Assembly (NCBI GenBank): GCA_015232405.1
Contig: JADFZS010000012.1
Location: 276-64,275, forward strand
DNA: 64,000 nt
Source: Magnetococcales bacterium
Lineage (GTDB): Bacteria; Pseudomonadota; Magnetococcia; Magnetococcales; JADFYX01
Reading direction: 5' to 3'
Shown: piece after piece, positions 12,540 through 36,727 of the stretch
Layout: every line of letters starts with the position of its first letter
Numbering within the stretch: the first letter of the stretch is position 1
Program-made: the position numbers and the translations under genes
Notes under the pieces: model-generated
Seen by the model: the letters and a program-made list of their open reading frames with translations, nothing else
The model's database searches: none
Told to the model about the DNA's origin: nothing

Positions 12540-12992
12540 ATGACTCTCATACAAGAGGAAATCACCTTAGAAAATCTAGTCAGTTTCCTGGCAACAATTC
12601 CTGGATTCAAGGATCTCTCTGCTGAAGAGATGATAGAGTTTGTTGCACCAATTATCAGTATCACAACCTATGAGCCAGGACAAACTATGATTAAACGCGG
12701 TACTGAAGGCAGTACAGTACTGTTTTTATTTAAAGGTAGGGCAAGGGTAAATGTTCAGCTGGATCCTGATGATAATATAAATTTTTTTATCAATGAAGGT
12801 GAGATACTTGGTGAGATGGCTCTCGTAACCAAGGAAAAACGCAGCGCAGACGTTTTTGCTGTTACTGCTGTTATCTGTTTAACCATTGATATTGAAACGT
12901 TTCAGACCCTTATGGCTAGCAATTGGAAAGTTACCAAAGCTGTTGCTGGTTTAATAGGCGAGAGAAGAATAAAACGGCTTGCCTCAAGATAA
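12540..12992 (+). CDS. stand-alone cyclic nucleotide-binding domain protein
   Basis: 150 aa with ...GQTMIKRGTEGSTVLFLFKGRARV...EGEILGEMALVTKEKRSADVFAVT, the FGE-type PBC motif. A strong SD (AAGGAGAG) lies upstream. Confidence 0.8.
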   Translation: MTLIQEEITLENLVSFLATIPGFKDLSAEEMIEFVAPIISITTYEPGQTMIKRGTEGSTVLFLFKGRARVNVQLDPDDNINFFINEGEILGEMALVTKEKRSADVFAVTAVICLTIDIETFQTLMASNWKVTKAVAGLIGERRIKRLASR

Positions 12993-20611: not shown

Positions 20612-23242
20612 TTAGAAAATCTCTATCGCATTCAATATTCCCCCACAGCGGTGGTCATCAGTTAGAAAATGTTTAACCAACCTACTTTGAAAATAGCGGG
20701 AGAACTGTTTGGCTACTGTTGCTGGCTGAGTGTCGATTAAAATTAACATCTCCTGGAATGTATCTATTATTACCTTATGTTTCTTTTTATGGTTGTCAGC
20801 TTCAGGGGTAGAGGCTTTTGTATAGAGCTTCTCTTCAGCTTTGAAACATGACTCCATCTGTTTAATAAATTTTTTCAGGCTTGTTTTCTGTTTGGTTATC
20901 TTTGCCGACTCTTCCACAGCAACTGTTAGATACTCGCTGCCTAGTTCAAAAAGATTGTGATGTCGATCATCAATGCTCTTTACCCCTACCCGATAGGCAT
21001 CACGCCATAAAAGTGTTGTCGATGTGTTTACATCCGGGTTTAATATGGAACGGCGACGTCTCTCAGATCTTTCAAGTAGTTTCCATCGCACAATAGGAAT
21101 ATCACGAACCAACTTTGAAGGAATTGTATAAATTTCCACATCTCCATTGGTTTTAACGTCATAAGTTTGTGGTCTTTCAAAAAGAGCCGACTCCTCACCA
21201 AAATAATCACCAGGCCCTAATGATTCAATGATATCATTATCCACCATACATGAGACCTGTCCCGATTTAATCAGGTTTAAGGAGTGTTTACCTTTCAGTT
21301 TTATTAATTTGTTACCTTTAAAGTTCTTAACTTCTATAGACTGGGCAATTTGACTCTGCTTTGGATAGGAGATAGCTTCACCAAATAACTCTGTATTTTG
21401 CAAAAATTCACGAAGTTGATGAATAGCTTTAATCTGGTTGTAGTAGTTGTTTTTCTTCACAAAACCAAGATAGAGACGACCGGGCAGGCGTATAGCCCTT
21501 ACAAAACTAGAAGCCCTATATGTCTGTTGAGATATGCTACGGTATAAACAGGATAGTTCTCCAAGTAGACTACCAGCAGAAAGAACGCCGGAAACCCCTA
21601 AACCACCGTGTAAAGTCTCCACTGTACCAGTTAGAACAAGGTAAATATCGTCACTTATCTCCTGCTCTTTATATATAATACTGCCAGGATTAAATGTAAT
21701 TACCTCATTATTTAATAGGCTTCTGATCTGATTTTGTGGTGCATCAGGAAAATATGAGCACATATAATCAATGGCCTCTCTCATGGCCGACTCGGTATAA
21801 TCAGGTATCAATATGTCAGTAGTACCAAAGGAGGCACTTGATCCTATTTTCCGTTGCTCACCAGTAAGTGGCGTAGAAGTGTGTGAAAGAATTATTTTTT
21901 TTGATTTATCACCTCTGAAATCTGTGGCAAACCCATGAATCATACCACCGCCAATATCAATTTTTTTAAGATTCGCTGGCAGTTGGTATTTCTCTAGAAC
22001 CTGCTCATAAAACTCCTTTGTCACCCCTTGTTTATCATCATCTTTACTTATCATGCCTTCTAGAACACTCAAGGAGACTATATCGGCATAGTGGGCATAA
22101 GAGTGGTAGCCATCCTCTGCCAAAGTACGAAAAACAAATATATTGGTCTCAACAGGGTGCGGTGAATAGAGAGGTTTAATTTCTAAACCCTCAAAATCAT
22201 TCCATTCATCAGCTTCCAAATCGTGTGTTTCAAAATAGTGATAGAAATCTTCCTCTTCAATTGAAAGAAGTACCGCAAGTTTTTTGGCGACAGAAGCTCG
22301 AACTAGAGGAGTGGAAAAATATTTAATCCTATGACCTGCCCTGATAAGGGCGGTGATACCACAAAAATGGTCATCATGGGCATGGGTATGAAAGATACCT
22401 TTAATCTCACTTATGCCAATTCCCAGTGATTCCAAGCTGTAGAGAATATTGGGGCCAGCATCAATAAGATATAACTGTCCCTGATACATAAGAATACTGG
22501 ACATACAGGGACGGTTGATATCCCAACCATCACCTTCACCTGAGTGGATAACCCCAAAGTACTCTCTTTTAAATTGATATTGGCCAAGGGGGTATGGGGG
22601 TGTGTAACTTTCACCAGCAGCAAGATTTAAATCAACAGATACAGTCTCATCCTTATAACTGATTTCAAAAATATTCAGTTGAACCCTACGAATTTCCACC
22701 CCTTCACAAATTTCAATGGTTGTATTCTCAAGAGGAATGGAATCCAGCAAGCTATCTGAAGGGCGGATACTACCAAAAGCAAATTTTAATTTAAGCCGCA
22801 TCATCTCATCGGCCTGCTCTTCAGATATACCAGTCTCAAGTATCTCCTCTTTGGAGATCAAGCCGTAGTTACCACGATAGATATAACCCATCTGTGCTTG
22901 CACCTGATCTGGTGCACCAATTAAACGGGGTTTTACCCCGGTATTATTGGGATGGTTGGGTATGATCATACCTTGACGGTAGAGCATTTGCAGCACCGGA
23001 AACTCAGCCAAATTGGAAAAGTGACCATTTTGTACTAGAACATCAGACAATAATATGGTGTTGGGGCCAGTCTCAAATGTTGCACCGTCCTGCTCTGTGT
23101 TGACTATTAAACCCCTTTTCATCAAATGTTTAACAGAATCTGCCGGACAGCCACAGAGCATATAAAGATCAACTTCAGGTACTGCGATCCAGTACATACC
23201 ATTTGTAATGTTAATTTTTGTTATTCTTTTGATTTGTTTCAT
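20612..23242 (-). CDS. multidomain protein: N-terminal unknown domain, MBL-fold hydrolase, 2x cNMP-binding, hemerythrin-like; candidate cNMP-regulated phosphodiesterase
   Basis: HTHAHDDH (HxHxDH). Two CNB domains (GSLLGELSCL...; GDYFGEESALFERPQTYDV). The C-terminal LLWRDAYRVGVKSIDDRHHNLFEL...CFKAEE...HKKKH...VKHFLTDDH is hemerythrin-like. I chose the ATG at 23242, 8 nt after GGGAGGA, over the track start at 23281. Confidence 0.82.
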   Translation of the reverse strand: MKQIKRITKINITNGMYWIAVPEVDLYMLCGCPADSVKHLMKRGLIVNTEQDGATFETGPNTILLSDVLVQNGHFSNLAEFPVLQMLYRQGMIIPNHPNNTGVKPRLIGAPDQVQAQMGYIYRGNYGLISKEEILETGISEEQADEMMRLKLKFAFGSIRPSDSLLDSIPLENTTIEICEGVEIRRVQLNIFEISYKDETVSVDLNLAAGESYTPPYPLGQYQFKREYFGVIHSGEGDGWDINRPCMSSILMYQGQLYLIDAGPNILYSLESLGIGISEIKGIFHTHAHDDHFCGITALIRAGHRIKYFSTPLVRASVAKKLAVLLSIEEEDFYHYFETHDLEADEWNDFEGLEIKPLYSPHPVETNIFVFRTLAEDGYHSYAHYADIVSLSVLEGMISKDDDKQGVTKEFYEQVLEKYQLPANLKKIDIGGGMIHGFATDFRGDKSKKIILSHTSTPLTGEQRKIGSSASFGTTDILIPDYTESAMREAIDYMCSYFPDAPQNQIRSLLNNEVITFNPGSIIYKEQEISDDIYLVLTGTVETLHGGLGVSGVLSAGSLLGELSCLYRSISQQTYRASSFVRAIRLPGRLYLGFVKKNNYYNQIKAIHQLREFLQNTELFGEAISYPKQSQIAQSIEVKNFKGNKLIKLKGKHSLNLIKSGQVSCMVDNDIIESLGPGDYFGEESALFERPQTYDVKTNGDVEIYTIPSKLVRDIPIVRWKLLERSERRRRSILNPDVNTSTTLLWRDAYRVGVKSIDDRHHNLFELGSEYLTVAVEESAKITKQKTSLKKFIKQMESCFKAEEKLYTKASTPEADNHKKKHKVIIDTFQEMLILIDTQPATVAKQFSRYFQSRLVKHFLTDDHRCGGILNAIEIF

Positions 23243-23594
23243 TTTAATCGTCCTCCCACTCTTCCCTCGGACAAACTCCACCTATTTTACAAGGCCCTTA
23301 AGCATAAAAATGATGTAACTTACTGTAACCAGACAAATTACATCCATCAACATCTATTAGACCAGTATACACAATTAATAATCAATTAGAAATTTTTCCT
23401 GATTTTTTATATATAGATGAAGCAAATTTATCATTTAGAATAAAAAAATAAAAATTCGACAATAATCTTTACATTTCCCTGTTACCAAGATGGAAAACAA
23501 GATATGCTAAAGATAACATGGGAATGGAGCATCTATGATAAAGATCATTATTGTAAAGTAACACTCTTTTTTTTAAGTCCAACGTGACAATATT

Positions 23595-24893
23595 ATGGAA
23601 CCAAGATCTGAAGAAGAGTCTCAACTAGCTCAGGCTAACTTTGAACTGCGCCACCTCCGGGAGACTGTCCAGGCGCAACAGGAAGCCATGGCTGACCTAT
23701 CCCACAAAAGTGGGCGAGAAATTCAAAAAGTTATCAGCAGCCAAGCAGGTGAGATGCGTCAGTATAAAGATACAATTGCATCCTTACGTAAAGAGTTAGA
23801 AGAGTTACAGTTTGAAAAAGGAAAAAGTGTACAAATAGCAATTGCTGAAGGTAATCGTGAATCAACCAACCTGCAATCCACAATCTCGGCCCTGCGAGAT
23901 GAGATGGAGAATATCAACTTTGATAAGCAGAGTGAAGTACAAACAGCAAAAAGCTATGGCACTTTGGAGATCAAACAGCTTAAAGAGACTGTGGCTGCCT
24001 TGCGTGATGAGATGGAAAATGTCCGTCACGAAAAACATACTGAGATTCAATCAGCTGTGCAACAGGGTAAGATGCAAGCATTGCAACTAGAAAATACCAT
24101 TGCAGCATTAAGAGTAGAACTTGACGAACTAGCCCATAGGATGCGCGCTCAGGTTCAGGAAGCATTGGCAAGTGGTCACCAAGAAATTTTACAATTAAAA
24201 GATACCGTAACAGCCCTTAGAGACAAAGTTGAAGAGGTGCAGTTTGAAAAACGCCAAGAAGTACAAAACACCCTGATAAAAGGCCATCGAGAGGCAACCC
24301 AACTACAGGAGACTATCTCTTCACTGCGGGATGTGTTGGATGACCAAAAACATGAACAACGCAAAGAGGTTCAAGCCACTTTGGTACAAGGACACCAAGA
24401 GGCAGTACAGCTACAGGCTACCATATCTTCTTTAAGAGTTAATATGGATGAGCTGCAATATTCAAAACAGCGTGAGGTTCAAGAGGCCGTTTCAATCGGT
24501 CACCGGGAAGCGCAGCACCTTCAAAGCACAATCACCGCCATTCGGGACGGAATGGATAATATGAGCTATGAAAAAGGCAAGGAGGTACAGTCGGCAAAAC
24601 TGTTTGGTCATACCGAAATAAATCAACTAAAAGAGACCACTTCAGCACTGCGTGACCAACTCGACGAACTGAACTACCAAAAGAGTCGTGCTGTCCAAGC
24701 TACACAAAAAGATGCAAGTTTAGAGATAGATCAGCTTCACAATACTGTATCTTCTCTCCGTGATGAGATGAACAACCTACAGACATCATACGAAAAAGAG
24801 ATAGAGTCCATGAAACAGGTCGCTCAGGGGGAGCGTCGGCAATTACAAGAGATGATAAGCGTCCTACGAGATAAATTGGAGCAGAGAGTATGA
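23595..24893 (+). CDS. 36-residue tandem-repeat alpha-helical protein (function unknown)
   Basis: 432 aa, made almost entirely of units such as VQxxxxxGHxExxQLxxTIxxLRDxMxxxxxEKxxE. The stop overlaps the cyclase start (ATGA). Confidence 0.8.
   Translation: MEPRSEEESQLAQANFELRHLRETVQAQQEAMADLSHKSGREIQKVISSQAGEMRQYKDTIASLRKELEELQFEKGKSVQIAIAEGNRESTNLQSTISALRDEMENINFDKQSEVQTAKSYGTLEIKQLKETVAALRDEMENVRHEKHTEIQSAVQQGKMQALQLENTIAALRVELDELAHRMRAQVQEALASGHQEILQLKDTVTALRDKVEEVQFEKRQEVQNTLIKGHREATQLQETISSLRDVLDDQKHEQRKEVQATLVQGHQEAVQLQATISSLRVNMDELQYSKQREVQEAVSIGHREAQHLQSTITAIRDGMDNMSYEKGKEVQSAKLFGHTEINQLKETTSALRDQLDELNYQKSRAVQATQKDASLEIDQLHNTVSSLRDEMNNLQTSYEKEIESMKQVAQGERRQLQEMISVLRDKLEQRV
23721..24890 (+). 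repeat. in-frame 108-bp (36-aa) tandem repeats: 10 full units plus a partial unit
   Basis: The units start at IQKV, VQIA, VQTA, IQSA, VQEA, VQNT, VQAT, VQEA, VQSA, VQAT and IESM. Each is exactly 36 residues with no indels. Confidence 0.85.
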
Positions 24894-27181
24894 CAACACC
24901 AACTAATAAAACCACTGAGACCAGAAGCACAACTTCACAGTATAAAAAGCAACTACACCAAATGGAGATGCTCCTTGATATCTCCAAACAGGTTGCTTCT
25001 CACGATACCCTTGATGAGATGTTGCGCACTATTGTGGAACTTATAACAGATAAAACTGATTCTGAACGTGGTTCTATATTTCTCAACGACAATCTAACCA
25101 ACGAACTCTATTCTCGTTATGCCCAAGGCAATATCCAGAGAGAAATCAGGATTCTCAATGATCACGGTATTGCTGGTCATGTTTTTCAAACTGGTGAAGG
25201 GGCCATCATACTAGATGCCTATAACGATGAAAGATTTGACTCTGCTACCGACCAAGAGACAGGGTTTACGACAAAAAGCATAATCTGTGCTCCCATACGA
25301 ACAGCAAAAGGCCAAATTATTGGTGTTGTACAGGCTCTAAACAAAAAAGAGGGTGATTTTACCGAGAGTGACCTCAAACTTGTTGAGACAATGACCACCC
25401 AAACAGCGGTCATTCTAGAAAGCACGCAAAACTTGGAGCGGATGGAGATTACCAGAAAGCAAGAACTGCTATTTTTGGATATGGTTTCTGACATCACCTC
25501 TGAAATTGAAATTGACTCCCTGCTACAAAAAGTTATCAGCGAATCAACAAAAATGCTCAGTGCCGATAGAGGTACTCTTTTTATAAACGATGAAAAGAGC
25601 AACGAGCTATTTTCTCGTGTTGCCATGGGTAACTCAATTGGCGAGATTCGTCTTCCAAATACCGCCGGTATTGCTGGTGCTGTTTTTACATCTGGAGAGA
25701 CAATCAACATTCCCTATGCCTATGCTGATCTCCGTTTCAACCCATCATTTGATAAGCAAACTGGTTATTTCACTCGCTCTATTCTCTGTGTGCCAGTTGT
25801 AAATAAAGAGGGTAAAACTATCGGTGTTACCCAGATGCTCAATAAAAAAGGTGGTACTTTCACACCAGAAGATGAAGCAAGACTAAAAGCCTTTACCGCT
25901 CAGGTATCCATAGCCTTAGAGAATGCCAAGCTCTTTGAAGACATACAAAACATGAAAAACTACAATGAAAGTATGCTTGAAAGTATGTCAAATGGTGTTG
26001 TAACGATAAATGATGAAGGTATAATAGCTACGTGCAATGCTGCCGGTTTGCGCTTACTAAAAGTTCACCATACAGAGATTCTTAAAAAAGAGGCAAAGGA
26101 GTTTTTTGTTGGTGATAACCTCTGGATAATGGAGAAAGTGGAACAGATATCAGAAAACCCAGAGGGATTCAACATGATGGATGTTGATGTTATGGCTGGT
26201 GGTGAAAAAATGTCCACCAACATGACCATACTGCCATTGGTAAGTGGCGAAGAAAAAGCCCTTGGTACAATGATAATGATTGAGGATATTAGTGGCGAAA
26301 AACGTATGAAGTCCACGATGTCCCGCTACATGGACCCTGGCCTTGCAGATCAGCTAATGGATGGTGGAGAGGATCTATTAGGTGGTAAAAGTGTGGAAGC
26401 TACTGTTGTATTTACAGATATCCGTAGTTTTACCACTTTAACTGAAGAGCTCGGTCCTCAAGGAACAGTTCTTCTGCTGAATGAATATTTTACTATCATG
26501 GTGGAATGTATATCCAAAGAGGGTGGCATGTTGGATAAATTTATCGGTGATGCCATGATGGCTGCCTTTGGCCTGCCACTAGCCCACGATGATGATGAAG
26601 ACCGCGCGGTACGTGCAGCAATCGATATGATTGTTAAGCTAAATGAGTATAATGCTGCCAGAGCTAAAGAAGGTAAAATGCCAGTATTAATGGGCATTGG
26701 TTTAAATACTGATACCGTAGTATCTGGTAACATTGGCTCACCAAAACGTATGGATTACACTATGATTGGCGACGGCGTTAATCTGGCCGCTCGTCTGGAG
26801 AGTGCCTGTAAACAGTATTCGGCCCAGATATTGGTCAGTGAAAGAACAGTTAGCAAACTCAAAGGAACCTATCGTATCAGACCAGTAGATTTAGTTGTTG
26901 TTAAGGGTAAAACCAAGCCTGTTGCAATTTTTGAGGTTCTCGACTACCACACTGAGGAGACCTTCCCCAACCTTATGGAGGCTGTCAACCATTTCAAGAG
27001 CGGCCTAGATCTCTATCGTAAAGGTAACTTTACTAAGTCAATTCAGGCATTTAATGAGGCAATTAAACTGAACCCCAATGATAAACTTGCGGATATGTAT
27101 ATTGGTCGCTGCAACGATCTTATTGCGGACCCTCCACCAGCAGATGAGTGGAACGGTGTTTGGGTAATGAAATCTAAATAA
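24890..27181 (+). CDS. GAF-GAF-PAS class III adenylate/guanylate cyclase with a C-terminal TPR-like tail (CyaB1-like architecture)
   Basis: 763 aa with two GAF domains (GIAGHVFQTGE..., GIAGAVFTSGE...), a PAS-like segment, and a cyclase core: VVFTDIRSFTTLTE...DKFIGDAMMAAFG...GNIGSPKRMDYTMIGDGVNLAARLES. Confidence 0.9.
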   Translation: MTTPTNKTTETRSTTSQYKKQLHQMEMLLDISKQVASHDTLDEMLRTIVELITDKTDSERGSIFLNDNLTNELYSRYAQGNIQREIRILNDHGIAGHVFQTGEGAIILDAYNDERFDSATDQETGFTTKSIICAPIRTAKGQIIGVVQALNKKEGDFTESDLKLVETMTTQTAVILESTQNLERMEITRKQELLFLDMVSDITSEIEIDSLLQKVISESTKMLSADRGTLFINDEKSNELFSRVAMGNSIGEIRLPNTAGIAGAVFTSGETINIPYAYADLRFNPSFDKQTGYFTRSILCVPVVNKEGKTIGVTQMLNKKGGTFTPEDEARLKAFTAQVSIALENAKLFEDIQNMKNYNESMLESMSNGVVTINDEGIIATCNAAGLRLLKVHHTEILKKEAKEFFVGDNLWIMEKVEQISENPEGFNMMDVDVMAGGEKMSTNMTILPLVSGEEKALGTMIMIEDISGEKRMKSTMSRYMDPGLADQLMDGGEDLLGGKSVEATVVFTDIRSFTTLTEELGPQGTVLLLNEYFTIMVECISKEGGMLDKFIGDAMMAAFGLPLAHDDDEDRAVRAAIDMIVKLNEYNAARAKEGKMPVLMGIGLNTDTVVSGNIGSPKRMDYTMIGDGVNLAARLESACKQYSAQILVSERTVSKLKGTYRIRPVDLVVVKGKTKPVAIFEVLDYHTEETFPNLMEAVNHFKSGLDLYRKGNFTKSIQAFNEAIKLNPNDKLADMYIGRCNDLIADPPPADEWNGVWVMKSK

Positions 27182-27208: not shown

Positions 27209-29269
27209 GTGGAAAATAGTTTAGAACAGGCTGTCTCTTTTCATAAAGCAGGACAGTTAAAAAAAGCTGGGATCTGTTACAAAAAAGTATTAGATAAGCA
27301 ACCAGATAATATTATAGCCCTTAGCAATTATGGGACAATATTATATGGGAATGGTAGGCTTGATGAGGCTGTTAACTGTTTTATAAAAGCCACTGAGGTC
27401 AAACCAGATTATGCAGATGCGCATTTTAACCTCGGGGCAATTTTAAAAGAACAGGAAAAGTGGGAAGGTGCAATTGCAAGTTTAAAGAGAGCAATTGCTA
27501 TAAAGCCAGACGTTATACAGGCATATTTCTATATTGCTACTATTCTAACCAAACAGGAAAATTTGCCCGAAGCAATAGGGTATTATAAAAAAACCATTGC
27601 TTTAAAACCAGACCATGTAGATGCTAACAACAACCTGGGAATTTTACTCCATAAACAAGGCAACCTCCCCGACGCTATTACCAGCTTTAAAAGAGCGTTA
27701 GCAATTCAACCAAATCATTTAGCAGTCCACAACAACCTTGGCAATACATATAAAGATCAAGGCAGTTTTGACCTTGCTGTTGCTAGTTTCAACAAAGCAA
27801 TAACCTTAAACCCCGCAATTTTTGAACTACATGTGAATTTAGGGAATGTTCTAACAATTCTTGGGCGAGTTGATGAAGCTGTTAAATGCTTTAAAAAAGC
27901 AATAACTATTAAACCTGATAACCCTGAACTATTTAATAACTTGGGAGCTGCATTAAAAGATCAAGGAAAGATAGAAGAGGCTATCTTAAATTTTAAAAAA
28001 GCAATCTCACTTCAAAAATATTATCCAGCTGCTCACTGTAACTTGATTTTTACAACAGACCTACTAACTGACTCTACTACCACAAAACTACAACAAATGC
28101 GCAGAGAGTGGGCAAAAAAATATGCCGATCCACTTATGGTGTTATGGACACCGTTCAATAATATTCCAGACCAAACAAGAAAACTAAAAATAGGTTATGT
28201 AGGAGCTGACTTTAGACGCCACTCAGCAGCTATGATATTTGGGCCTGTGATTTTCAATCATAATCCAGATAGATTTCAAATATACTGCTATGCTGGCAAC
28301 CTTGATAGCGATGATCTAACGGCTAAGTTTAAAAGATATGCCTATAAATGGCTGCAAACATCACACCTTGATGATGCACAATTGGCGGAGCAGATTAAAA
28401 ATGATGGCATTGACATCCTAATTGACCTAGCTGGACACACCCGTGGCAACCGTCTTCTAACCTTTGCAAGAAAACCTGCTCCTATACAGATAACTGCTTG
28501 GGGATATCCACTTGGCACAAGCATGAAAGCCATGGATTATATCTTTTCAGATCCGCTATCCATACCATACAATGATAGAGAGCAATATATTGAAACAATT
28601 ATTGATTTAAAATGTATTTTGCATCTAGACTCTGACAATTTTGTTAAATTTCCACCTGTAAACAAACTACCTGCTACAACAACTGGGACTGTAACTTTTG
28701 GAACCTTTAACAGATTAGAAAAAAATAGTAACGAGTCCTATTCTACCTGGGGAAAAATATTACAAAATATACCCAATTCAAAACTTCTGCTTAAAGCCCC
28801 ACAGCTTGACTCACTCCAACAAGTAGAAAAAATAAAAACAACGTTCAAAAAAATTGGTATAGCTGAAAGTCGAATTATTACCATGGGTAAAAGCTCACAA
28901 GAAGAGCACCTAGCAGCCCATCATCTCATAGATATCATGTTAGATCCATTCCCCCACAGTGGTGGAGTAACCACTTTAGAATCTTTAAAAATGGGTGTTC
29001 CTGTTCTTACCTGTATTGAAAAAAGCATTTTTTGTGATTCTGGAGGAATGTTGCAAATCATGGGTTTAGACAATTGGTGTGCAAAAGATGAGGTAGACTA
29101 TGTAAATCTAGCTAAAAAGTTTGCTGCTGATATAGATTCTTTAGCTCTACTTAGGGCAAATTTAAGGGAACGTTTTGAAAAATCTTTGGTAGGAAATTCA
29201 CCCCTGTATACAGCTCATATTGAAGAGATATATCGAAAACTATGGCAGGAGTGGTGCAATAAACAATAA
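27209..29269 (+). CDS. TPR-repeat protein with a C-terminal SPINDLY/O-GlcNAc-transferase-like glycosyltransferase domain
   Basis: 686 aa with a GTG start and about 8 canonical TPRs (...AIxxxKKAIxIKPD...). The C-terminus is KIGYVGADFRRHSAA...DILIDLAGHTRGNR...TFGTFNRLEK...LDPFPHSGGVTTLESLKMGVPVLT. Confidence 0.82.
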   Translation: MENSLEQAVSFHKAGQLKKAGICYKKVLDKQPDNIIALSNYGTILYGNGRLDEAVNCFIKATEVKPDYADAHFNLGAILKEQEKWEGAIASLKRAIAIKPDVIQAYFYIATILTKQENLPEAIGYYKKTIALKPDHVDANNNLGILLHKQGNLPDAITSFKRALAIQPNHLAVHNNLGNTYKDQGSFDLAVASFNKAITLNPAIFELHVNLGNVLTILGRVDEAVKCFKKAITIKPDNPELFNNLGAALKDQGKIEEAILNFKKAISLQKYYPAAHCNLIFTTDLLTDSTTTKLQQMRREWAKKYADPLMVLWTPFNNIPDQTRKLKIGYVGADFRRHSAAMIFGPVIFNHNPDRFQIYCYAGNLDSDDLTAKFKRYAYKWLQTSHLDDAQLAEQIKNDGIDILIDLAGHTRGNRLLTFARKPAPIQITAWGYPLGTSMKAMDYIFSDPLSIPYNDREQYIETIIDLKCILHLDSDNFVKFPPVNKLPATTTGTVTFGTFNRLEKNSNESYSTWGKILQNIPNSKLLLKAPQLDSLQQVEKIKTTFKKIGIAESRIITMGKSSQEEHLAAHHLIDIMLDPFPHSGGVTTLESLKMGVPVLTCIEKSIFCDSGGMLQIMGLDNWCAKDEVDYVNLAKKFAADIDSLALLRANLRERFEKSLVGNSPLYTAHIEEIYRKLWQEWCNKQ

Positions 29270-29280
29270 GATATCTCAGC

Positions 29281-29907
29281 TTAATCCAACCCCCCAACAT
29301 GCCAGAAAAGCAGTCGTGGAATTGGGGTGTCCCCAACATAATCAATACGTACCCGGGAAAGGGCAGCAAATGGTATTAACAATCGGGATAGATTTTCAAG
29401 TGGTATACCCAACAACATCCCGATAGTTACCCGAATTACCCCACTATGGGCAACTAACAGAATATGTTCACCTTCTGAATTATTGAGCATTTTCTGCCAT
29501 GCATTGGCAATTCGGTTGTGCACGTCTATTATTGGCTCCCCTTGTGGTGGAGTATGGTCCCTTGGGTTGCGCCAAAAATTTTGCACATGTTCGCTATACA
29601 GCTCATCATTAAGAAGTTCTTGTCTGGTTTTGCCCTCCCAAAGTCCAAAATTCATCTCACGGAAATCCTGTTCTATCTCAACAGGTATAGATAAGGTATC
29701 CCCAGTTTTTACGGCAAATTGTGAACAACGTTTTAAGGGTGATGTAACAATCTTTTGCCAGGGGGCTTGATACTCGTCAATGGTTTTTTGCATCTGTTGC
29801 CAACCAAGATCAGATAGAGGATCATCCAATGTTCCTCTATATTTTGAGCCACCTTGGGGTTCTCCATGACGAAGAAAATCTATGGTTGTCGTTGCGCGTT
29901 CGTTCAT
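29281..29907 (-). CDS. histidine phosphatase family protein (phosphoglycerate mutase/alpha-ribazole phosphatase-like)
   Basis: 208 aa with IDFLRHGEPQGG, PLSDLGWQQM and LLVAHSGVIR. The start overlaps the upstream stop by 1 nt (TAATG). Confidence 0.82.
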   Translation of the reverse strand: MNERATTTIDFLRHGEPQGGSKYRGTLDDPLSDLGWQQMQKTIDEYQAPWQKIVTSPLKRCSQFAVKTGDTLSIPVEIEQDFREMNFGLWEGKTRQELLNDELYSEHVQNFWRNPRDHTPPQGEPIIDVHNRIANAWQKMLNNSEGEHILLVAHSGVIRVTIGMLLGIPLENLSRLLIPFAALSRVRIDYVGDTPIPRLLFWHVGGLD

Positions 29908-31562
29908 TATTTTATGTATGCTGTGACAAATGAGTCTCGTTTGAACTTGTTGCTAAACTCTTTTTGAGCCTTGCGAGCCAGATTTTTATTTTTATAGTTA
30001 CCAAATCGGACCAAGTAAAGAGTCTTGCCACTTTTTTTATCTACACGTTGTTGAATAAACAGCTCTCCACCCTTTTTATTAAGACCATCTCTTACCAAGA
30101 CTGCCTCTTTTTCATTATGTAATGCAGCTATTTGTATGGTCCAGCGAGGTTGATTGTTTTCTATAGGAAATAGAGTATCAATTTGATTCACAATTTGTGG
30201 TGATGACTCCTCATCATGAGCCATGGGGTGTGGTACACCCTCTTCCCTGTCTAGAATAAGATCAAACCCATCACCCTGTGGTGTTAGCCTACCTAGTACT
30301 TGCAGAAGTTCAAACATAGCTAGGTTAACAGCAAACTGGCTTTTGACCTGCTCTATCTGGGCGGAAAAGAGTTCATTTTGAGCATCAAGTAGATCCAAAG
30401 ATGTTCTAGAGCCAACCTGATACTCCTGGTCTACACCATCCTTTGCCTCTTGTGCAGCAGTTACTGCAGTTTTTAAAGCAAGATCAGTAGCTTTAGCACT
30501 ATCAATTTTTGCTAAAACCTGTTTCAACTCTCGCTCAGCCTGTATACGTAATAGATCTAGATCGGCCTGTTTATTATCCCGGTTGGATTGTGCCTGTTTA
30601 ACTTGTGCGGTGGTTAAACCACCTGAATATAGCGGTAGTGATGCGGCAACTGTGACAGTAAAAGCATCTGTAGAATTGTCGGTTAGTGATGTAGCAGGAT
30701 TCCATGTTCTAGAACCACTTGCTTTTAGAGATACTGTTGGATAGTGACCAGCTTTTGTTACCTCTACCAGCTTCTTCTCCCCTTGTAATCTATATTGAGC
30801 AGATAGTATATCAGGGCGAGTTTTAACAAGTGGTATTAGCTTATCAAGATCTAAAGTTGGTAGATCAGATAGCACAATGGGAATTTGCAATCCTGTTGGA
30901 AAAGGAATTCCAGCAATTTCCTGGAATTTAGCAGCAAGAATTAAGCTATCCCCATTCTGACGTATCCAGGCAGCTTTTGCTATGGCAACCCTGGAAATAG
31001 CTTGGCTAACATCTGTTTTTGTAACCTCTCCTACAGAAAACCTTGCCTTGGTCGCCTCCAAATGGTGTTCGGTTACTTCTAGATTATTTTTTGCTAACCT
31101 TGCTACCTCTTTAGACTCAATAAGGGCAGTTGCTGCCTGTATCAGAGAAAAATAGACCTGCTGTCTCACACCTTCTAAATCAAGTTCCAATGATCTTACT
31201 TGAGGGTCAACCCGATCCATTTCTCGAATAGCAGAAAGGTTATAGAGTGTCTGGCTTGCAGAAAGAGTTAAAGAGTGTGGGTCATAGTTACTACTACCAT
31301 CCCGCCAGTCACTATTTGTATATGATGACTGCCAATCCAATGAGACAGTTGGAAGAACAACTGCTTTAGCTTGGGCATATAGGGTCATGGCAGCTGCAAG
31401 TCGAGCTTCAGACTGCTTTATAAGGTTGTTGGAAGCCAAAGCTTCTTGTACTGATATGTAGAACAGTGCTAACGGTTTTTCGTTAGTTGCATGCGTCACA
31501 CCTGAATACAGAACAAAAAGGCCAGCTAAACCCCATATTTTAAGCATTTTTTTAATGGACAT
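29907..31562 (-). CDS. TolC-family outer-membrane channel fused to a C-terminal SPOR domain
   Basis: It has two TolC repeat halves (SLDWQSSYTNS..., LKASGSRTWNP...). The C-terminal ~80 aa, RWTIQIAALHNEKEAVLVRDGL...LYLVRFGNYKNKNLARKAQKEF, has the SPOR pattern. The ATG at 31562 gives the signal peptide MSIKKMLKIWGLAGLFVLYSGVTHA. Confidence 0.82.
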   Translation of the reverse strand: MSIKKMLKIWGLAGLFVLYSGVTHATNEKPLALFYISVQEALASNNLIKQSEARLAAAMTLYAQAKAVVLPTVSLDWQSSYTNSDWRDGSSNYDPHSLTLSASQTLYNLSAIREMDRVDPQVRSLELDLEGVRQQVYFSLIQAATALIESKEVARLAKNNLEVTEHHLEATKARFSVGEVTKTDVSQAISRVAIAKAAWIRQNGDSLILAAKFQEIAGIPFPTGLQIPIVLSDLPTLDLDKLIPLVKTRPDILSAQYRLQGEKKLVEVTKAGHYPTVSLKASGSRTWNPATSLTDNSTDAFTVTVAASLPLYSGGLTTAQVKQAQSNRDNKQADLDLLRIQAERELKQVLAKIDSAKATDLALKTAVTAAQEAKDGVDQEYQVGSRTSLDLLDAQNELFSAQIEQVKSQFAVNLAMFELLQVLGRLTPQGDGFDLILDREEGVPHPMAHDEESSPQIVNQIDTLFPIENNQPRWTIQIAALHNEKEAVLVRDGLNKKGGELFIQQRVDKKSGKTLYLVRFGNYKNKNLARKAQKEFSNKFKRDSFVTAYIK

Positions 31563-31873
31563 TTTGATAAACCTGTGTAATTCAATAATTTTTATTAACC
31601 ATGCAATCATATCACATCATTTCGACAAAAGAAATCTATCGTAAGATAATGAGACAAACCTTGCGAAGTAAAAATAAAAAATAGTACAACAATCTTGCTA
31701 AAGAAGGTTTATGTGAATAACAAGTCAGTTAGTTCACATTTATGATTACTTAGGAAGATATTCCACACTTATTGATAAGCGACCCTTTCAATAAGTTCCT
31801 CATATTATGCATATTATAAATTTCAGATAATTTTTTAAAAAATTAATTCACTATTTATGGTTAATGAATAACA

Positions 31874-34330: not shown

Positions 34331-34563
34331 CAGAACACTCAACCTACAAAACCAACATTGTTAATAACTTGTTTAAAATTTTAAACTAAACACAAACATG
34401 AATCCATTCATAATAATCCTAAATCAAAACCATCCAAAGCTATAAAAGAGTGATAGCACATAAAAATTTAGAATTCATCGGTGACCTTGTCAAATTTAAT
34501 CAATCTTTGCTAACCTTCATAAAATAAAATGTTATCTGCCTCTTAAATATGGGACCAGTAAAT

Positions 34564-36543
34564 ATGAGAATTCTCATAGTTATGCCAAGATTTTCCAACA
34601 GTGTGTTGCAATCATATGAGATTCCACTTGGTATTCTTTATATCTCCTCAGCATTAAAGAGTGCAGGAAAAGAAGTTCACACTCTTAACCTTAACTGTTT
34701 AGAAGGTACTGTTGAAGATGAGATTGCCAAAGCAATAAAAGAGGTTGATCCAGATGTGTGCGCTAGTGGTGGCCTTTCAGATAATTTTCAGATTGTTCAG
34801 TCCGTATTTGTAAATGCCCGTAAATATAAGCCAGAAATTATTAATATTGCTGGTGGTGGTTTGGTGAGTGCAGATCCGGAGATGGCAGCAAAACTATGTG
34901 ATTTTGACATAGGGGTTAGAGGAGAAGGAGAGCTGGCAATTGTTGAAGTTATTGATGCTTTAAGCAACAATTTGCCACTTCAAGATGTTACAGGTTTGGT
35001 TATAAAAAGAGATAAGGAGCCTCCTCTACTTACTCAAGCTAGAAAAGTCAACTTTGATATTAGCACCCTACCTTGGCCAGATTATGAAGGGTTCAATATG
35101 GACAAGTTATTGGAAATACAGATTCCACAAAACTTGTATATATTTCACCCATATGACAACCCAAGATCCATCCCAATGATAACAAGCCGTTCATGCCCAC
35201 TACAATGTACGTTCTGCTACCACCCAACTGGGCAAGTTTATAGAGAGAGAGATTTTGATGATTTTTTTGCTGAATTAGACCATCTAATTGCAACTTATAA
35301 CATCAATTTAATTTCTATTTCTGATGACCTTTTATCCCTAAAAAAAAGGCGGATGATAGAGTTTTGTGAACGCATAAAACCTTATAACCTAAAATGGGAA
35401 TGCCAGATACATGAAAAATCAGTTGATATAGAGACCCTCAATTTACTTAAAGAGGCAGGATGTTTCGCAATTAGTATCGGTATTGAAAGTATGAGTGAAC
35501 CGATATTAAATAGTATGAAAAAACGTACTTCACCAGAAAAACTGGCTAAAGCACTAAAGCTCATTTATTCCTCAGATTTACTCATTCAGGGCAATATTTT
35601 ATTGGGTGATCCAGCAGATACATTAGAAACAATAGCTGAATCCTTCAATTTTATGGTCCAACACCCTGAATATGGAATAAACTACTCTAGACTAAGAGTT
35701 CTTCCAGGTAGTGAGATTTATAAAAATGCGGAACAAAAAGGACTATTTGGGGATCAAGGTGTAGTATTTGCCAACCCAGAAATACAGGTAAATCTAACCC
35801 ATATGACCAATGAGGTGTTTAACTCATTGTGTATGCGCTTTAACTTTTATACAAAAACACTCATATATAAGGGATCTGTATTATCAATTGACTTAGAAAA
35901 AGAAGCTCATCCAATCTTTGGTAAGGGAAAAACCTGCCAATGGCTCTGTCCTAAATGCAATAAAATTAGCAAGTATGGTAGTATTTTTATAGATAAGGGT
36001 AATATTCGTCTCTCTTGTCGACACTGTTATGCTTTGGCCTATATACACATTTGGAGCTTTAACCCACCTTTAAGCAACCCTAAGGAAGATATACAGCTAG
36101 CTATTGCGCAAAAACATGAAGAGATCTATTTGCACAACAATTCAACCCAAGCAAAACAGAACGCAGCTATTGAGTATCATAAGCTACTAACAAACCACTG
36201 TTTACCGCCTAATAATACCAATAAATCTTGGGCTTGTGACAAAGCTGCTTTAAAACTAGGTCAATTTAAGCTTGAAAATGGAGAACAAGAAGAAGCAATG
36301 CAACTGATAATGTATGCATTGGAAAATAATGTCTGGAATCCTGATAGCCATGCTACTTTTGCAATAGCACTAAAAAAGGAGGGAAGTCTTGGGGCAGCTT
36401 TACTTTATTTAGATAAGGCGATAGAGCTAAGCAATGACCCACCGCAATCTTGGATCAATTCTCGCGAAGAATTGGATAGTTTGATTGATGAAAAAGGGTT
36501 AAGGAATAACAATTCAGTACTATATTTCAACTCATTTTATTGA
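34564..36543 (+). CDS. B12-binding-domain radical SAM protein with a C-terminal Zn-ribbon and TPR-like tail (paralog 1)
   Basis: The N-terminal MRILIVMPR...LGILYISSAL is B12-binding-like. SRSCPLQCTFC is the CX3CX2C motif. It also has CPKC...CRHC and a helical-repeat C-terminus. The alternative start at 34549 adds 5 aa. Confidence 0.85.
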   Translation: MRILIVMPRFSNSVLQSYEIPLGILYISSALKSAGKEVHTLNLNCLEGTVEDEIAKAIKEVDPDVCASGGLSDNFQIVQSVFVNARKYKPEIINIAGGGLVSADPEMAAKLCDFDIGVRGEGELAIVEVIDALSNNLPLQDVTGLVIKRDKEPPLLTQARKVNFDISTLPWPDYEGFNMDKLLEIQIPQNLYIFHPYDNPRSIPMITSRSCPLQCTFCYHPTGQVYRERDFDDFFAELDHLIATYNINLISISDDLLSLKKRRMIEFCERIKPYNLKWECQIHEKSVDIETLNLLKEAGCFAISIGIESMSEPILNSMKKRTSPEKLAKALKLIYSSDLLIQGNILLGDPADTLETIAESFNFMVQHPEYGINYSRLRVLPGSEIYKNAEQKGLFGDQGVVFANPEIQVNLTHMTNEVFNSLCMRFNFYTKTLIYKGSVLSIDLEKEAHPIFGKGKTCQWLCPKCNKISKYGSIFIDKGNIRLSCRHCYALAYIHIWSFNPPLSNPKEDIQLAIAQKHEEIYLHNNSTQAKQNAAIEYHKLLTNHCLPPNNTNKSWACDKAALKLGQFKLENGEQEEAMQLIMYALENNVWNPDSHATFAIALKKEGSLGAALLYLDKAIELSNDPPQSWINSREELDSLIDEKGLRNNNSVLYFNSFY

Positions 36544-36727
36544 TTTTCATACTTTATTGACAGTAATAACTGGAAAACATTGTTCAATAAACCTTACATA
36601 TTTATTAAGAACAAATGATCCCTATAAACATAACGAGTTACAAAGGTGAACTTGTTAATTTAATGAAACTTTGTTAGTTTCTACTAGGAATAATGACCCT
36701 CGCCATTTTGATTCAGGACCAAATAAT

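What the first reader, a model, noticed from the sequence alone, without database searches (positions are those of the whole stretch)
23595..24893. Protein built from exact 36-residue tandem repeats, translationally coupled to the cyclase
Seen: ten full and two partial 36-aa units with no indels. The consensus is roughly VQxAxxxGHxExxQLxxTIxxLRDEMxxxxxEKxxE, with a conserved Gly-His pair, a Leu-Arg-Asp and a Glu-Lys. The DNA copies differ mostly at synonymous or conservative positions, so this is not a recent slippage expansion. The stop overlaps the cyclase ATG (GTATGA).

Inference: 36 residues equals ten turns of an ideal 3.6-residue alpha-helix. The repeat is therefore not heptad-based, and may form long straight helices or helical hairpins such as a scaffold, ruler or filament. 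The periodic His could ligate metal or heme. The tight coupling implies a fixed stoichiometry with the cyclase. I do not recognise the repeat family.
Basis: partly seen in the sequence, partly recalled or inferred. Interest (0 to 1): 0.72.

Follow-up and report, generated by a model that had tools for sequence, protein, structure and literature searches.

The report
Coiled-coil rod partnering an adenylate cyclase
This gene encodes a long, rod-like helical protein built from exact 36-residue modules. It belongs to an undescribed family that, in about 200 bacterial genomes from many phyla, always sits directly in front of one highly conserved cAMP-making enzyme, so it is very probably that enzyme's dedicated partner.

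Summary
ORF 23595-24893 (+) encodes 432 aa, exactly 12 x 36 residues in one register with no indels, and its TGA overlaps the ATG of a GAF-GAF-PAS-class III cyclase-TPR gene.

It is not an oddity of this genome. The window is a Magnetococcales chromosome. A 36-column profile finds 936 cluster representatives in 1.84 billion proteins. In 204 distinct homologues, 831 of 839 inter-unit distances are exactly 36, and 637 internal units contain no proline. Copy number runs from 1 to 20.

Linkage to the cyclase is essentially absolute in both directions: every cyclase locus with room upstream (about 78 of 80), and 105 of 105 loci found from the repeat alone. No other neighbour is conserved.

No Pfam, NCBIfam or PDB family matches, and databases call these proteins "hypothetical".

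Hydrophobic periodicity is 3.60 (36/10). AlphaFold predicts one continuous helix. The core and flank pattern fits a parallel, unsupercoiled two-stranded rod of about 5.4 nm per unit.

The Gly-His pair is lineage-specific, so metal or heme binding is unsupported.

In some lineages the repeats are fused to, or encoded next to, an Apyc1-like metallo-beta-lactamase, a likely cyclic-nucleotide phosphodiesterase.

Best reading: a dedicated scaffold or spacer subunit of a CyaB1-type adenylate cyclase. Physical binding is untested.

The parts
23595..24893 (+). Gene for the 432-aa repeat protein (12 x 36 residues, all helical). It is a member of an undescribed family.
   Evidence: ORF and periodicity; family; AlphaFold2: helix 7-291 and 333-431
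23595..23702 (+). Unit 1, the N-terminal cap variant of the repeat. The window reads ..SQLAQANFELRHLRETVQAQQEAM..; the family cap reads ..L-x-x-A-Q-x-E-I-R-[QH]-L-K-x-T-[IV]-x-A-L-R-E-E-L-E.
23703..24782 (+). Units 2-11, the ten internal 36-residue modules. The family consensus is F-E-K-[DE]-x-A-V-Q-E-A-V-A-x-[GAS]-x-D-E-I-x-Q-L-K-x-T-[AIV]-x-A-L-R-D-E-L-E-x-L-R. Arg29 is 99% conserved, Leu21 94% and Glu17 94%.
24783..24890 (+). Unit 12, the C-terminal cap variant (TSYEKEIESMKQVAQGERRQLQEMISVLRDKLEQRV). The family cap reads x-x-[YH]-E-x-K-[ILV]-Q-x-x-E-R-x-A-R-D-E-..-Q-L-x-x-T-I-x-x-L-R-x-x-L-E.
24878..24893 (+). Gene junction. A Shine-Dalgarno-like GGAG (24878-24881) lies inside the repeat gene. 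The cyclase ATG (24890-24892) overlaps the repeat-gene TGA (24891-24893).
   Evidence: Overlaps of -4 and -11 nt recur in homologous loci.
24890..27181 (+). The partner gene: a 763-aa GAF-GAF-PAS-class III nucleotide cyclase with a C-terminal TPR. It is 62-74% identical over its full length to orthologues in many phyla. The catalytic-domain motifs VVFTDIRSF, LDKFIGDAMMA and YTMIGDGVNLAARLE are all present. I read the Lys...Thr substrate pair as a class IIIb adenylate cyclase.
   Evidence: The reading of the catalytic residues is from the sequence plus my own knowledge of class III cyclases.
20612..23281 (-). Divergent neighbour of 889 aa: metallo-beta-lactamase domain, two cNMP-binding domains and a C-terminal hemerythrin domain. 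It may be functionally connected, as a cNMP-responsive hydrolase. It is not part of the conserved module.
   Evidence: domains; no homologue in the other loci

Best explanation
The ORF encodes the dedicated partner protein of a CyaB1-type, GAF-regulated class III adenylate cyclase.

Structure (inferred):
- The protein is a proline-free, continuous alpha-helix built from 36-residue (ten-turn) modules.
- Each module reads as four heptads plus one 4+4 stretch, so the hydrophobic seam runs straight along the helix with a period of 36/10 = 3.6.
- Core positions carry beta-branched residues at 'a' (V11, I18, V/I25) and Leu at 'd' (L21, L28, L35).
- Glu sits at 'g' (E17, E31) and Lys/Arg five residues later at 'e' (K22, R36).
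- This pattern fits a parallel, in-register, essentially unsupercoiled two-stranded rod of about 5.4 nm per unit, or about 64 nm for the 12 units here.

Anatomy (shown):
- Conserved N- and C-terminal cap units flank a variable number of internal units; total copy number runs from 1 to 20.
- On the outer face each unit presents a conserved patch made of an aromatic residue at position 1 with Q8, D30 and E33.

Proposed mechanism (inferred):
- The rod is made together with the cyclase from one operon, and here the two genes are translationally coupled.
- It acts as a scaffold or spacer that docks the soluble cyclase dimer and organises it into a defined assembly.
- In some lineages the same rod carries an Apyc1-like cyclic-nucleotide phosphodiesterase domain, so that cAMP synthesis and breakdown are held together.

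What is shown and what is not: the repeat anatomy, the family, the obligate gene linkage and the fusions are shown. The oligomeric state, binding to the cyclase and the effect on activity are inferred.
For: Periodicity:
- The window protein has exact 36-residue periodicity.
- In 204 distinct homologues, 831 of 839 spacings are 36 and no Pro occurs in 637 internal units.

Linkage to the cyclase:
- Starting from the cyclase, the best 80 loci (62-74% identity) were examined. Every locus with enough upstream DNA has a same-strand repeat ORF ending at the cyclase start.
- Starting from a repeat-only DNA motif, 119 of 119 hits are family members. All 105 with room downstream have the cyclase adjacent on the same strand.
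- Eight of eight contexts looked up from protein hits show the same arrangement.
- Clustering all neighbouring ORFs finds no other conserved gene.

Structure:
- The hydrophobic Fourier peak is at 3.60.
- Core and flank residue usage was measured, and the helical-wheel positions.
- AlphaFold2 gives a continuous helix 7-291 with pLDDT above 90 where the alignment is deep. In the fusion protein it gives a single 135-residue helix projecting from the globular domain.

Phosphodiesterase link:
- About 17 clusters of 613-643 aa carry an N-terminal MBL domain fused to 3-4 repeats. The two whose surroundings were read lie directly upstream of the cyclase.
- The stand-alone version of that MBL lies directly downstream of a repeat-cyclase pair in L210.
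- A second, unrelated MBL type is also found fused (P0121 and P0018).
- The best structural matches of the fused MBL are the Apyc1 cyclic-nucleotide nucleases 7u2r, 7u2s and 7t28, with E 4e-11 to 2e-9 and TM 0.71-0.75.

Cyclase:
- Its GAF tandem is closest to PDE5/PDE2 and to Anabaena CyaB2 (1ykd).
- cAMP binding to the CyaB2 GAF domains raises cyclase activity (PMC4411481, abstract as listed).
Against: - There is no direct evidence of a physical interaction; the tools do not offer multimer prediction.
- The MBL association is limited to a minority of lineages. It is absent from nearly all of the roughly 200 loci.
- If every unit were a docking site, stoichiometry would vary about 20-fold between species. 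That sits badly with operon or coupled expression.
- The conserved polar residues could serve the rod's own structure rather than a ligand.
- Despite constant adjacency, no repeat-cyclase fusion appears among the 150 strongest database hits or the 204 locus proteins. This is unexplained.
- The cyclase's C-terminal TPR, an obvious candidate docking site, is shared with CHASE2-cyclase paralogues that have no repeat gene of their own.
- The AlphaFold model of the window protein is low-confidence for residues 288-339, where the alignment is empty.
Confidence: 0.55

Rival explanations
1. Direct allosteric regulator. The helical protein binds the GAF/PAS or catalytic domains and switches the self-activating cyclase off or on. 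It would act as a brake on the cAMP positive-feedback loop, as the small gamma subunit does for the GAF-containing PDE6. It would not act as a scaffold.
For: - The gene linkage is obligate and the cyclase is extremely conserved.
- The part of the cyclase specific to this orthogroup, as opposed to the CHASE2 paralogues, is the GAF-GAF-PAS region.
- The conserved cap units could be the regulatory contacts.
Against: - A regulator does not need 2-20 strictly phased 36-residue units or a 10-100 nm rod.
- The fusions to an MBL hydrolase fit a carrier or scaffold role better.
Confidence: 0.2
2. Self-assembling cytoskeletal filament or ruler. The strictly periodic rods pack side by side with a 36-residue stagger into filaments or bundles, as myosin rods or intermediate-filament-like proteins do. 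The cyclase is merely positioned on this structure.
For: - Exact periodicity is maintained over hundreds of units.
- An outward-facing conserved aromatic residue and an acidic patch recur every 5.4 nm.
- Length is variable and expanded in some lineages to 10-20 units.
Against: - Most members have only 3-6 units (16-32 nm).
- There is no strong long-range charge alternation; power at periods 36 and 18 is low.
- There is no link to cell-shape or division genes.
Confidence: 0.12
3. Surface-binding amphipathic helix. A straight 3.6-period hydrophobic stripe would let the helix lie flat on a membrane, lipid or inclusion surface, like phasins or apolipoproteins, and tether the soluble cyclase there.
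For: - The 3.60 periodicity gives an untwisted apolar stripe.
- There are weak sub-threshold Pfam similarities to ApoO and ApoLp-III, and automatic 'phasin' and 'gas vesicle protein' labels on some members.
Against: - The apolar stripe is narrow (only a/d positions, with Ala/Ser/Gly at one of them).
- It is flanked by the Glu(g)/Lys-Arg(e) pattern typical of helix-helix pairing.
- All those Pfam hits are far below threshold.
- No phasin, gas-vesicle or lipid genes are nearby.
Confidence: 0.06
4. Metal- or heme-binding helical protein using the periodic Gly-His.
For: His follows Gly in units 6-10 of the window protein.
Against: - His at position 15 occurs in only about 10% of family units, and Gly14 in 19-29%.
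- Most homologues have none.
- There are no Cys or paired-His motifs.
Confidence: 0.02
5. No protein function. The ORF is a chance or leader reading frame that only serves translational coupling. Alternatively, the pair is a Pycsar-like anti-phage cyclase system.
For: - The ATGA overlap.
- The catalytic domain matches PADLOC PycC models, which reflects generic class III homology.
Against: - The protein sequence and 36-residue phase are conserved across phyla while third codon positions are saturated.
- Two thirds of loci have no overlap.
- The repeat protein has no PADLOC hit, and no TIR or TM effector is present.
- The cyclase has sensory GAF-PAS domains, and I read its Lys/Thr substrate pair as an adenylate cyclase.
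Confidence: 0.02

Closest known systems
Anabaena CyaB1/CyaB2 adenylate cyclases (tandem GAF, PAS, class III catalytic domain; PDB 1ykd). This is the closest known relative of the partner gene.
   Same: The domain order GAF-GAF-PAS-cyclase is the same. The GAF tandem is closest to CyaB2 and to PDE5/PDE2. In CyaB2, cAMP binding to the GAF domains raises cyclase activity (PMC4411481).
   Different: To my knowledge no partner protein has been described for CyaB1 or CyaB2. The orthogroup here is proteobacterial and multi-phylum, not cyanobacterial. Whether the cyanobacterial genes have such a neighbour was not tested.
Scy/FilP of Streptomyces: bacterial coiled-coil proteins with a long non-heptad (51-residue) repeat. 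This comparison rests on my own recollection of Walshaw et al. 2010; it was not retrieved here.
   Same: Both are long bacterial coiled coils whose sequence repeat is a multiple-heptad unit with built-in discontinuities, giving a periodicity near 3.6.
   Different: The repeat length differs (36 vs 51). There is no detectable sequence similarity. Scy and FilP are polarity or cytoskeletal proteins and are not linked to a cyclase.
Tropomyosin, nebulin and gas-vesicle GvpC: helical proteins whose exact repeat length matches a partner lattice.
   Same: All have strictly phased helical repeats and a variable repeat number that sets length. The 36-residue unit spans about 5.4 nm.
   Different: No periodic partner lattice is known here. 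The Pfam Halo_GVPC match is 13 bits against a cut-off of 22. No gvp genes are nearby.
Eukaryotic AKAP scaffolds and the cyclase-associated protein CAP/Srv2.
   Same: This is an analogy of function. AKAPs hold cyclase, phosphodiesterase and effectors together. CAP binds yeast adenylate cyclase through a coiled-coil segment. Both statements are from my own knowledge.
   Different: There is no homology, and the bacterial case has no experimental support yet.
Apyc1 / YhfI-type metallo-beta-lactamase cyclic-nucleotide phosphodiesterases. This is the closest known relative of the domain fused to the repeats in some lineages.
   Same: The best Foldseek matches of the fused domain are Apyc1 structures. 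Pfam PF23023 is recorded for the whole family.
   Different: The fused domain is about 480 aa, with an extra beta-rich C-terminal part. Sequence identity to Apyc1 is about 14-15%. Activity is untested.

Membership tests
Canonical heptad coiled coil | Hydrophobic a/d pattern with periodicity 7/2 = 3.5 throughout | tested here: not met
   The Fourier peak is at 3.60 = 36/10. Core spacing within the unit is 4,3,4,3,4,3,4,3,4,4. It works like a coiled coil, but with one periodic 4+4 discontinuity per unit.
Canonical heptad coiled coil | Continuous alpha-helix without helix breakers | tested here: met
   Pro is 0% in all 36 columns of 637 units. AlphaFold2 gives a continuous helix.
Canonical heptad coiled coil | Defined oligomer (dimer, trimer or tetramer) and orientation | not testable with these tools
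   A parallel dimer is inferred only from beta-branched residues at 'a', Leu at 'd', Glu at 'g' and Lys/Arg at 'e'. No multimer prediction was available.
GvpC gas-vesicle protein repeat (PF05465) | Match to the repeat profile above the Pfam threshold | tested here: not met
   13.3 bits against a cut-off of 22.4, E = 0.1.
GvpC gas-vesicle protein repeat (PF05465) | Location in a gvp gene cluster | tested here: not met
   The only conserved neighbour in about 200 loci is the cyclase.
SMC / intermediate-filament / apolipoprotein-type helical proteins | Profile match above the curated threshold | tested here: not met
   SMC scores 31 bits against 729. Filament scores 12 against 40. ApoO scores 20 against 31. 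These are generic helical similarity only. PDB sequence searches find nothing significant.
New 36-residue repeat family (defined here) | Two or more units matching xEKxxxVQxAxxxxxxEIxQLxxTxxALRDELExLx spaced exactly 36 residues apart | tested here: met
   The window protein has 12 units and scores 514 bits with profile A1.
New 36-residue repeat family (defined here) | Gene directly upstream of, and co-directional with, a GAF-GAF-PAS-cyclase orthologue | tested here: met
   The window has a 4-nt overlap. The same arrangement is found in all informative loci.
Class IIIb adenylate cyclase, CyaB1-like (the partner gene) | Tandem cNMP-type GAF domains, PAS and a class III catalytic domain | tested here: met
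   Pfam finds GAF x2, PAS and Guanylate_cyc. The closest PDB chains are PDE5, PDE2 and CyaB2 GAFs, plus bacterial class III cyclases.
Class IIIb adenylate cyclase, CyaB1-like (the partner gene) | Catalytic residues present and a Lys/Thr substrate-specifying pair; cAMP synthesis | tested here: inconclusive
   The motifs VVFTDIRSF, LDKFIGDAMMA and YTMIGDGVNLAARLE are present in the translation. Assigning roles to them rests on my knowledge of class III cyclases. Enzyme activity is not testable here.
Apyc1-like MBL cyclic-nucleotide phosphodiesterase (the domain fused to repeats in P0004-type proteins) | MBL fold with the HxHxDH metal motif and closest structural similarity to Apyc1 | tested here: met
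   THCHDDH is invariant in alignment A4. The top Foldseek hits are 7u2r, 7u2s and 7t28, with TM 0.71-0.75.
Apyc1-like MBL cyclic-nucleotide phosphodiesterase (the domain fused to repeats in P0004-type proteins) | Hydrolysis of 3',5'-cyclic mononucleotides | not testable with these tools
   This needs an enzyme assay.
Pycsar anti-phage system | PycC cyclase next to a TIR or transmembrane effector | tested here: not met
   Only the generic catalytic domain matches PycC. There is no effector. The repeat protein has no PADLOC hit.

The most novel reading that the evidence does not exclude
The rod is a multivalent, length-tunable platform for a bacterial cAMP 'signalosome'. Each 5.4-nm unit would present the same conserved outer patch (aromatic residue 1, Q8, D30, E33) and dock one enzyme. 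The docked enzymes would be the GAF cyclase, its CHASE2 paralogue that shares the same C-terminal TPR, or an Apyc1-like phosphodiesterase. The number of units (2 to 20) would then set how many self-activating cyclases are clustered, and so set the sharpness of an all-or-none cAMP switch. This would be a prokaryotic counterpart of AKAP scaffolds, built on an unprecedented 36/10 straight coiled coil.
Probability: 0.15. Interest if true: 0.85.

Novelty: new variant of a known kind. Interest (0 to 1): 0.62.

Why it matters
Class III adenylate cyclases with tandem GAF domains are textbook self-activating cAMP switches. They have been studied as stand-alone enzymes.

This analysis shows that one very conserved orthogroup, 62-74% identical across Proteobacteria, Nitrospirota, Planctomycetota, Verrucomicrobiota, Acidobacteriota and others, is never found without an uncharacterised helical partner. 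The partner's architecture is itself unusual: hundreds of repeats held to exactly 36 residues.

If the partner binds the cyclase, three things follow:
- Biochemical work on such cyclases in isolation may miss half of the system.
- It would give bacteria a scaffold for local cAMP synthesis and breakdown.
- It would give protein designers a natural straight (3.6-period) modular coiled coil of adjustable length.

At the least, it defines a new protein family that currently has no Pfam or NCBIfam model and is annotated only as 'hypothetical protein'.

Tried and rejected
- Tandem Repeats Finder on the DNA found no 108-nt array, because the copies are too diverged.
- Pfam, NCBIfam, PADLOC and PDB sequence searches were run with the window protein, several homologues and a 144-column profile. 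They gave only sub-threshold generic coiled-coil hits.
- The search for related loci with the single protein found no close relative among GTDB species genomes. The 36-column alignment was too short for the search for homologous proteins.
- Literature searches for a 36-residue repeat, or for a coiled-coil partner of GAF cyclases, found nothing relevant. Two papers opened for wording on periodicities did not contain it.
- Conservation of the window's flanking genes (MBL-cNMP-hemerythrin, SBP_bac_3, TPR-GT41, histidine phosphatase) was tested. They are not conserved in other loci.
- Long N-terminal extensions of some homologous ORFs have no domains. They are mostly stop-to-stop artefacts of GC-rich DNA.
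- Unit-by-unit orthology between the window protein and the 10-12-unit Magnetococcales homologues was tested. Only the two caps correspond, so the history of the expansion could not be resolved.
- Charge periodicity that might drive staggered filament packing shows no strong 36- or 18-residue term.
- No Rfam family or tRNA occurs anywhere in the window.
- The promoter/terminator scan was uninformative.
Full report
**1. The observation**

ORF 23595..24893 on the + strand encodes 432 residues. Printed in blocks of 36, the twelve blocks align in one register without a single insertion or deletion. The protein length is exactly 12 x 36.

Residue identity at lags 36, 72 and 108 is 0.36-0.38, against about 0.07 at other lags. 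This is 21.8 standard deviations above shuffled sequence.

The stop codon overlaps the start of the next gene (GTATGA). A GGAG lies 9-12 nt upstream of that ATG. The next gene encodes a 763-aa GAF-GAF-PAS-Guanylate_cyc protein with a C-terminal TPR.

- The Gly-His pair is present in only five units.
- The copies are old and strongly diverged. They average 35% protein and 47% DNA identity, third positions are near saturation, and the same codon is used at only 38% of identical residues. Tandem Repeats Finder sees nothing at the DNA level.

**2. A real and widespread family**

The first word-indexed protein search found only four relatives. All had units spaced exactly 36 apart.

I built a 36-column profile from 27 units (A1). 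Run exhaustively against 1.84 billion cluster representatives, it found 936 proteins at E <= 0.001 and 416 at E <= 1e-10. Most are 70-250 aa with 2-5 units.

I collected 204 distinct members from genomic loci. Their properties:
- 831 of 839 inter-unit distances are exactly 36.
- None of 637 internal units contains a proline.
- Copy number ranges from 1 to 20, with a mode of 4-5.

The internal unit consensus is F-E-K-[DE]-x-A-V-Q-E-A-V-A-x-[GAS]-x-D-E-I-x-Q-L-K-x-T-[AIV]-x-A-L-R-D-E-L-E-x-L-R. Arg29 is 99% conserved, and Glu17 and Leu21 are 94% conserved. The first and last units are distinct, conserved cap variants.

The window's Gly-His is not conserved. Gly14 is 19-29% and His15 is about 10%.

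No Pfam, NCBIfam, PADLOC or PDB entry matches above threshold. Source annotations are 'hypothetical protein' or inconsistent automatic labels.

**3. The link to the cyclase**

*From the cyclase side.* The window cyclase has 576 relatives among GTDB species genomes. The best 80 are 62-74% identical over the whole length. They come from Magnetococcales, Rhodospirillales, Scalindua, Desulfobacterales, Nitrospirota, Verrucomicrobiota, Bryobacterales and Burkholderiales.

In every one of these loci with enough upstream DNA, a same-strand ORF with 2-12 repeat units ends at the cyclase start. Three loci have too little upstream sequence to judge.

*From the repeat side.* I scanned the same collection with a degenerate DNA motif derived only from two consecutive repeat units.
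- All 119 encode family members.
- All 105 with room downstream carry the cyclase adjacent on the same strand.

*From individual protein hits.* Eight contexts looked up this way agree.

*Other neighbours.* All-against-all clustering of neighbouring ORFs shows the repeat gene in 191 loci and the cyclase in 190. Nothing else is conserved beyond local synteny. The next-largest clusters are antisense shadow ORFs inside the cyclase gene. The window's own flanking genes are not conserved elsewhere.

*Spacing.* Stop-to-start distance ranges from about -44 to about +390 nt by my rough start-codon calls. Roughly a third of loci overlap or nearly abut; -4 and -11 are the commonest values. Operon-like adjacency is therefore universal, but the translational coupling seen in the window is not.

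*No fusion.* No repeat-cyclase fusion protein appears among the 150 strongest database hits or the locus set.

**4. Structure**

The hydrophobic moment spectrum, averaged over 81 proteins, peaks at 3.60 residues, the tenth harmonic of 36.

Within a unit the apolar positions are 7, 11, 14, 18, 21, 25, 28, 32, 35 and the next 3. The spacings are 4,3,4,3,4,3,4,3,4,4, which is four heptads plus one 4+4 stretch.

On a 100-degree helical wheel the apolar positions fall in one stripe at 160-280 degrees. The seam is therefore straight, not the left-handed stripe of a 3.5-period coiled coil.

Residue usage by position:
- 'a' positions hold V, I and A.
- 'd' positions hold L.
- 'g' positions hold E17 and E31.
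- The 'e' positions five residues later hold K22 and R36.

By the usual rules, as I know them, this pattern favours a parallel in-register two-stranded structure. It disfavours an antiparallel one, which would pair like charges.

AlphaFold2 on the window protein gave a single helix from residue 7 to 291, with pLDDT above 90 where the alignment has depth. It gave a low-confidence kink at 288-339, where the alignment is empty, and a helix at 333-431. I read the kink as an artefact.

At about 0.15 nm rise per residue, a unit is about 5.4 nm and the 12-unit protein is about 64 nm.

On the outer face, each unit keeps a conserved patch: an aromatic residue at position 1 (0 degrees), with D30, E33 and Q8 around it. 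This could be a recurring contact site.

**5. A recurrent link to metallo-beta-lactamase hydrolases**

*First MBL type.* One of the first hits, P0004, is a 633-aa protein. It has an N-terminal MBL-type domain of about 480 aa followed by 3-4 repeat units, and it lies directly upstream of the cyclase.

A search with that domain found about 17 clusters of 613-643 aa with the same fusion. It also found hundreds of stand-alone proteins of about 485 aa. Three contexts were read:
- In L211 the fusion overlaps the cyclase start.
- In L210 the order is repeat protein (3 units), cyclase, stand-alone MBL.
- In L209 the MBL is not near a cyclase.

AlphaFold2 on the fusion (pLDDT 84.6, pTM 0.74) shows a globular domain plus one 135-residue helix. 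Foldseek places the globular domain closest to the Apyc1 anti-Pycsar cyclic-nucleotide nucleases 7u2r, 7u2s and 7t28, with E 4e-11 to 2e-9. Next come YhfI and RNase Z/ELAC proteins.

*Second MBL type.* A different MBL type of about 290 aa is also found fused to repeats, in P0121 and the fragment P0018. It lies a few kb from the pair in three loci.

*The window.* The divergent neighbour (20612..23281, minus strand) carries yet another MBL domain, with two cNMP-binding domains and a hemerythrin domain.

These associations are a minority and are lineage-restricted. They are independent of one another, and they point to cyclic-nucleotide turnover.

**6. Interpretation**

The gene pair behaves as one mobile, strongly conserved two-gene module. 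The upstream protein is almost certainly a functional partner of the cyclase.

The cyclase is of the CyaB1/CyaB2 type. Its GAF tandem is closest to PDE5/PDE2 and CyaB2. For CyaB2, cAMP binding to the GAF domains raises activity (PMC4411481). From the sequence, I read the catalytic residues as present, with a Lys/Thr substrate pair.

I propose that the partner is a parallel dimeric rod that docks the cyclase dimer and sets its spatial arrangement. In some lineages it would also carry the opposing phosphodiesterase.

Conserved caps with a variable middle favour a spacer or ruler with terminal docking sites. The conserved outer patch on every unit keeps a multivalent platform possible.

Rivals, scored in the form:
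- a direct allosteric regulator;
- a self-assembling filament;
- a surface-binding amphipathic helix.

Metal or heme binding, a mere coupling leader and a Pycsar-like defence system are contradicted by the data.

**7. Context and limits**

The window is chromosomal DNA; UvrB, a GyrB/ParE-like gene and others are present. It comes from a Magnetococcales bacterium: its UvrB is 87-89% identical to Magnetococcales MAGs.

Magnetococcales homologues carry 5-12 units; four of the seven examined have 10-12. Other lineages mostly carry 4-6, though Opitutales and another lineage reach about 20. Internal units of the window protein have no one-to-one counterparts in the nearest 12-unit homologue.

Nothing here demonstrates binding, oligomeric state, expression or enzymatic effect. 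Those need the experiments listed under next steps.

Noticed in passing
window 20612-23281 (-): An 889-aa protein with an unusual architecture. It has an N-terminal region of about 250 aa without a Pfam match, a metallo-beta-lactamase domain, two cNMP-binding domains and a C-terminal hemerythrin domain. It is divergently transcribed from the repeat-cyclase operon. It could be an O2/NO- and cNMP-responsive hydrolase. It has no homologue in the other roughly 200 loci.
   Followed up: partly
window 12540-12992 (+): A small stand-alone cNMP-binding protein of 150 aa lies about 10 kb upstream. The neighbourhood therefore holds several cyclic-nucleotide signalling genes.
   Followed up: no
window 27209-29269 (+): A 686-aa protein with eight TPR repeats plus a GT41 (O-GlcNAc-transferase-like) domain starts 28 nt after the cyclase stop. 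It may be in the same transcript here. It is found near the pair in only three other loci.
   Followed up: partly
about 30 loci, e.g. L053:7322-9631 (-) and L081:10548-12788 (+): A CHASE2-domain membrane cyclase is encoded just downstream of the GAF cyclase, usually convergent to it, mostly in Rhodospirillales. Its catalytic domain and C-terminal TPR-like tail are homologous to residues 464-763 of the window cyclase. FecR and outer-membrane efflux (OEP) genes often lie nearby. The window also has an OEP-SPOR gene at 29907-31610.
   Followed up: partly
L004:28-1491 (protein P0003): A truncated malic-enzyme/phosphotransacetylase C-terminus runs directly into five repeat units, on a 1.7-kb metagenome contig. 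The cyclase N-terminus follows it. This is either a real gene fusion or an assembly or gene-calling chimera.
   Followed up: partly
L142 (Opitutales) and L171: Family members with about 18-20 repeat units, which would be rods of about 100 nm. These are the longest seen.
   Followed up: no
loci L005-L084: The cyclase is 62-74% identical over 760 residues between very distant phyla (Magnetococcales, Scalindua, Nitrospirota, Verrucomicrobiota, Acidobacteriota). This suggests horizontal spread of the two-gene cassette, unusually strong constraint, or both.
   Followed up: no
window 34549-38707 (+): Two adjacent paralogous B12-binding radical-SAM proteins of 664 and 678 aa.
   Followed up: no
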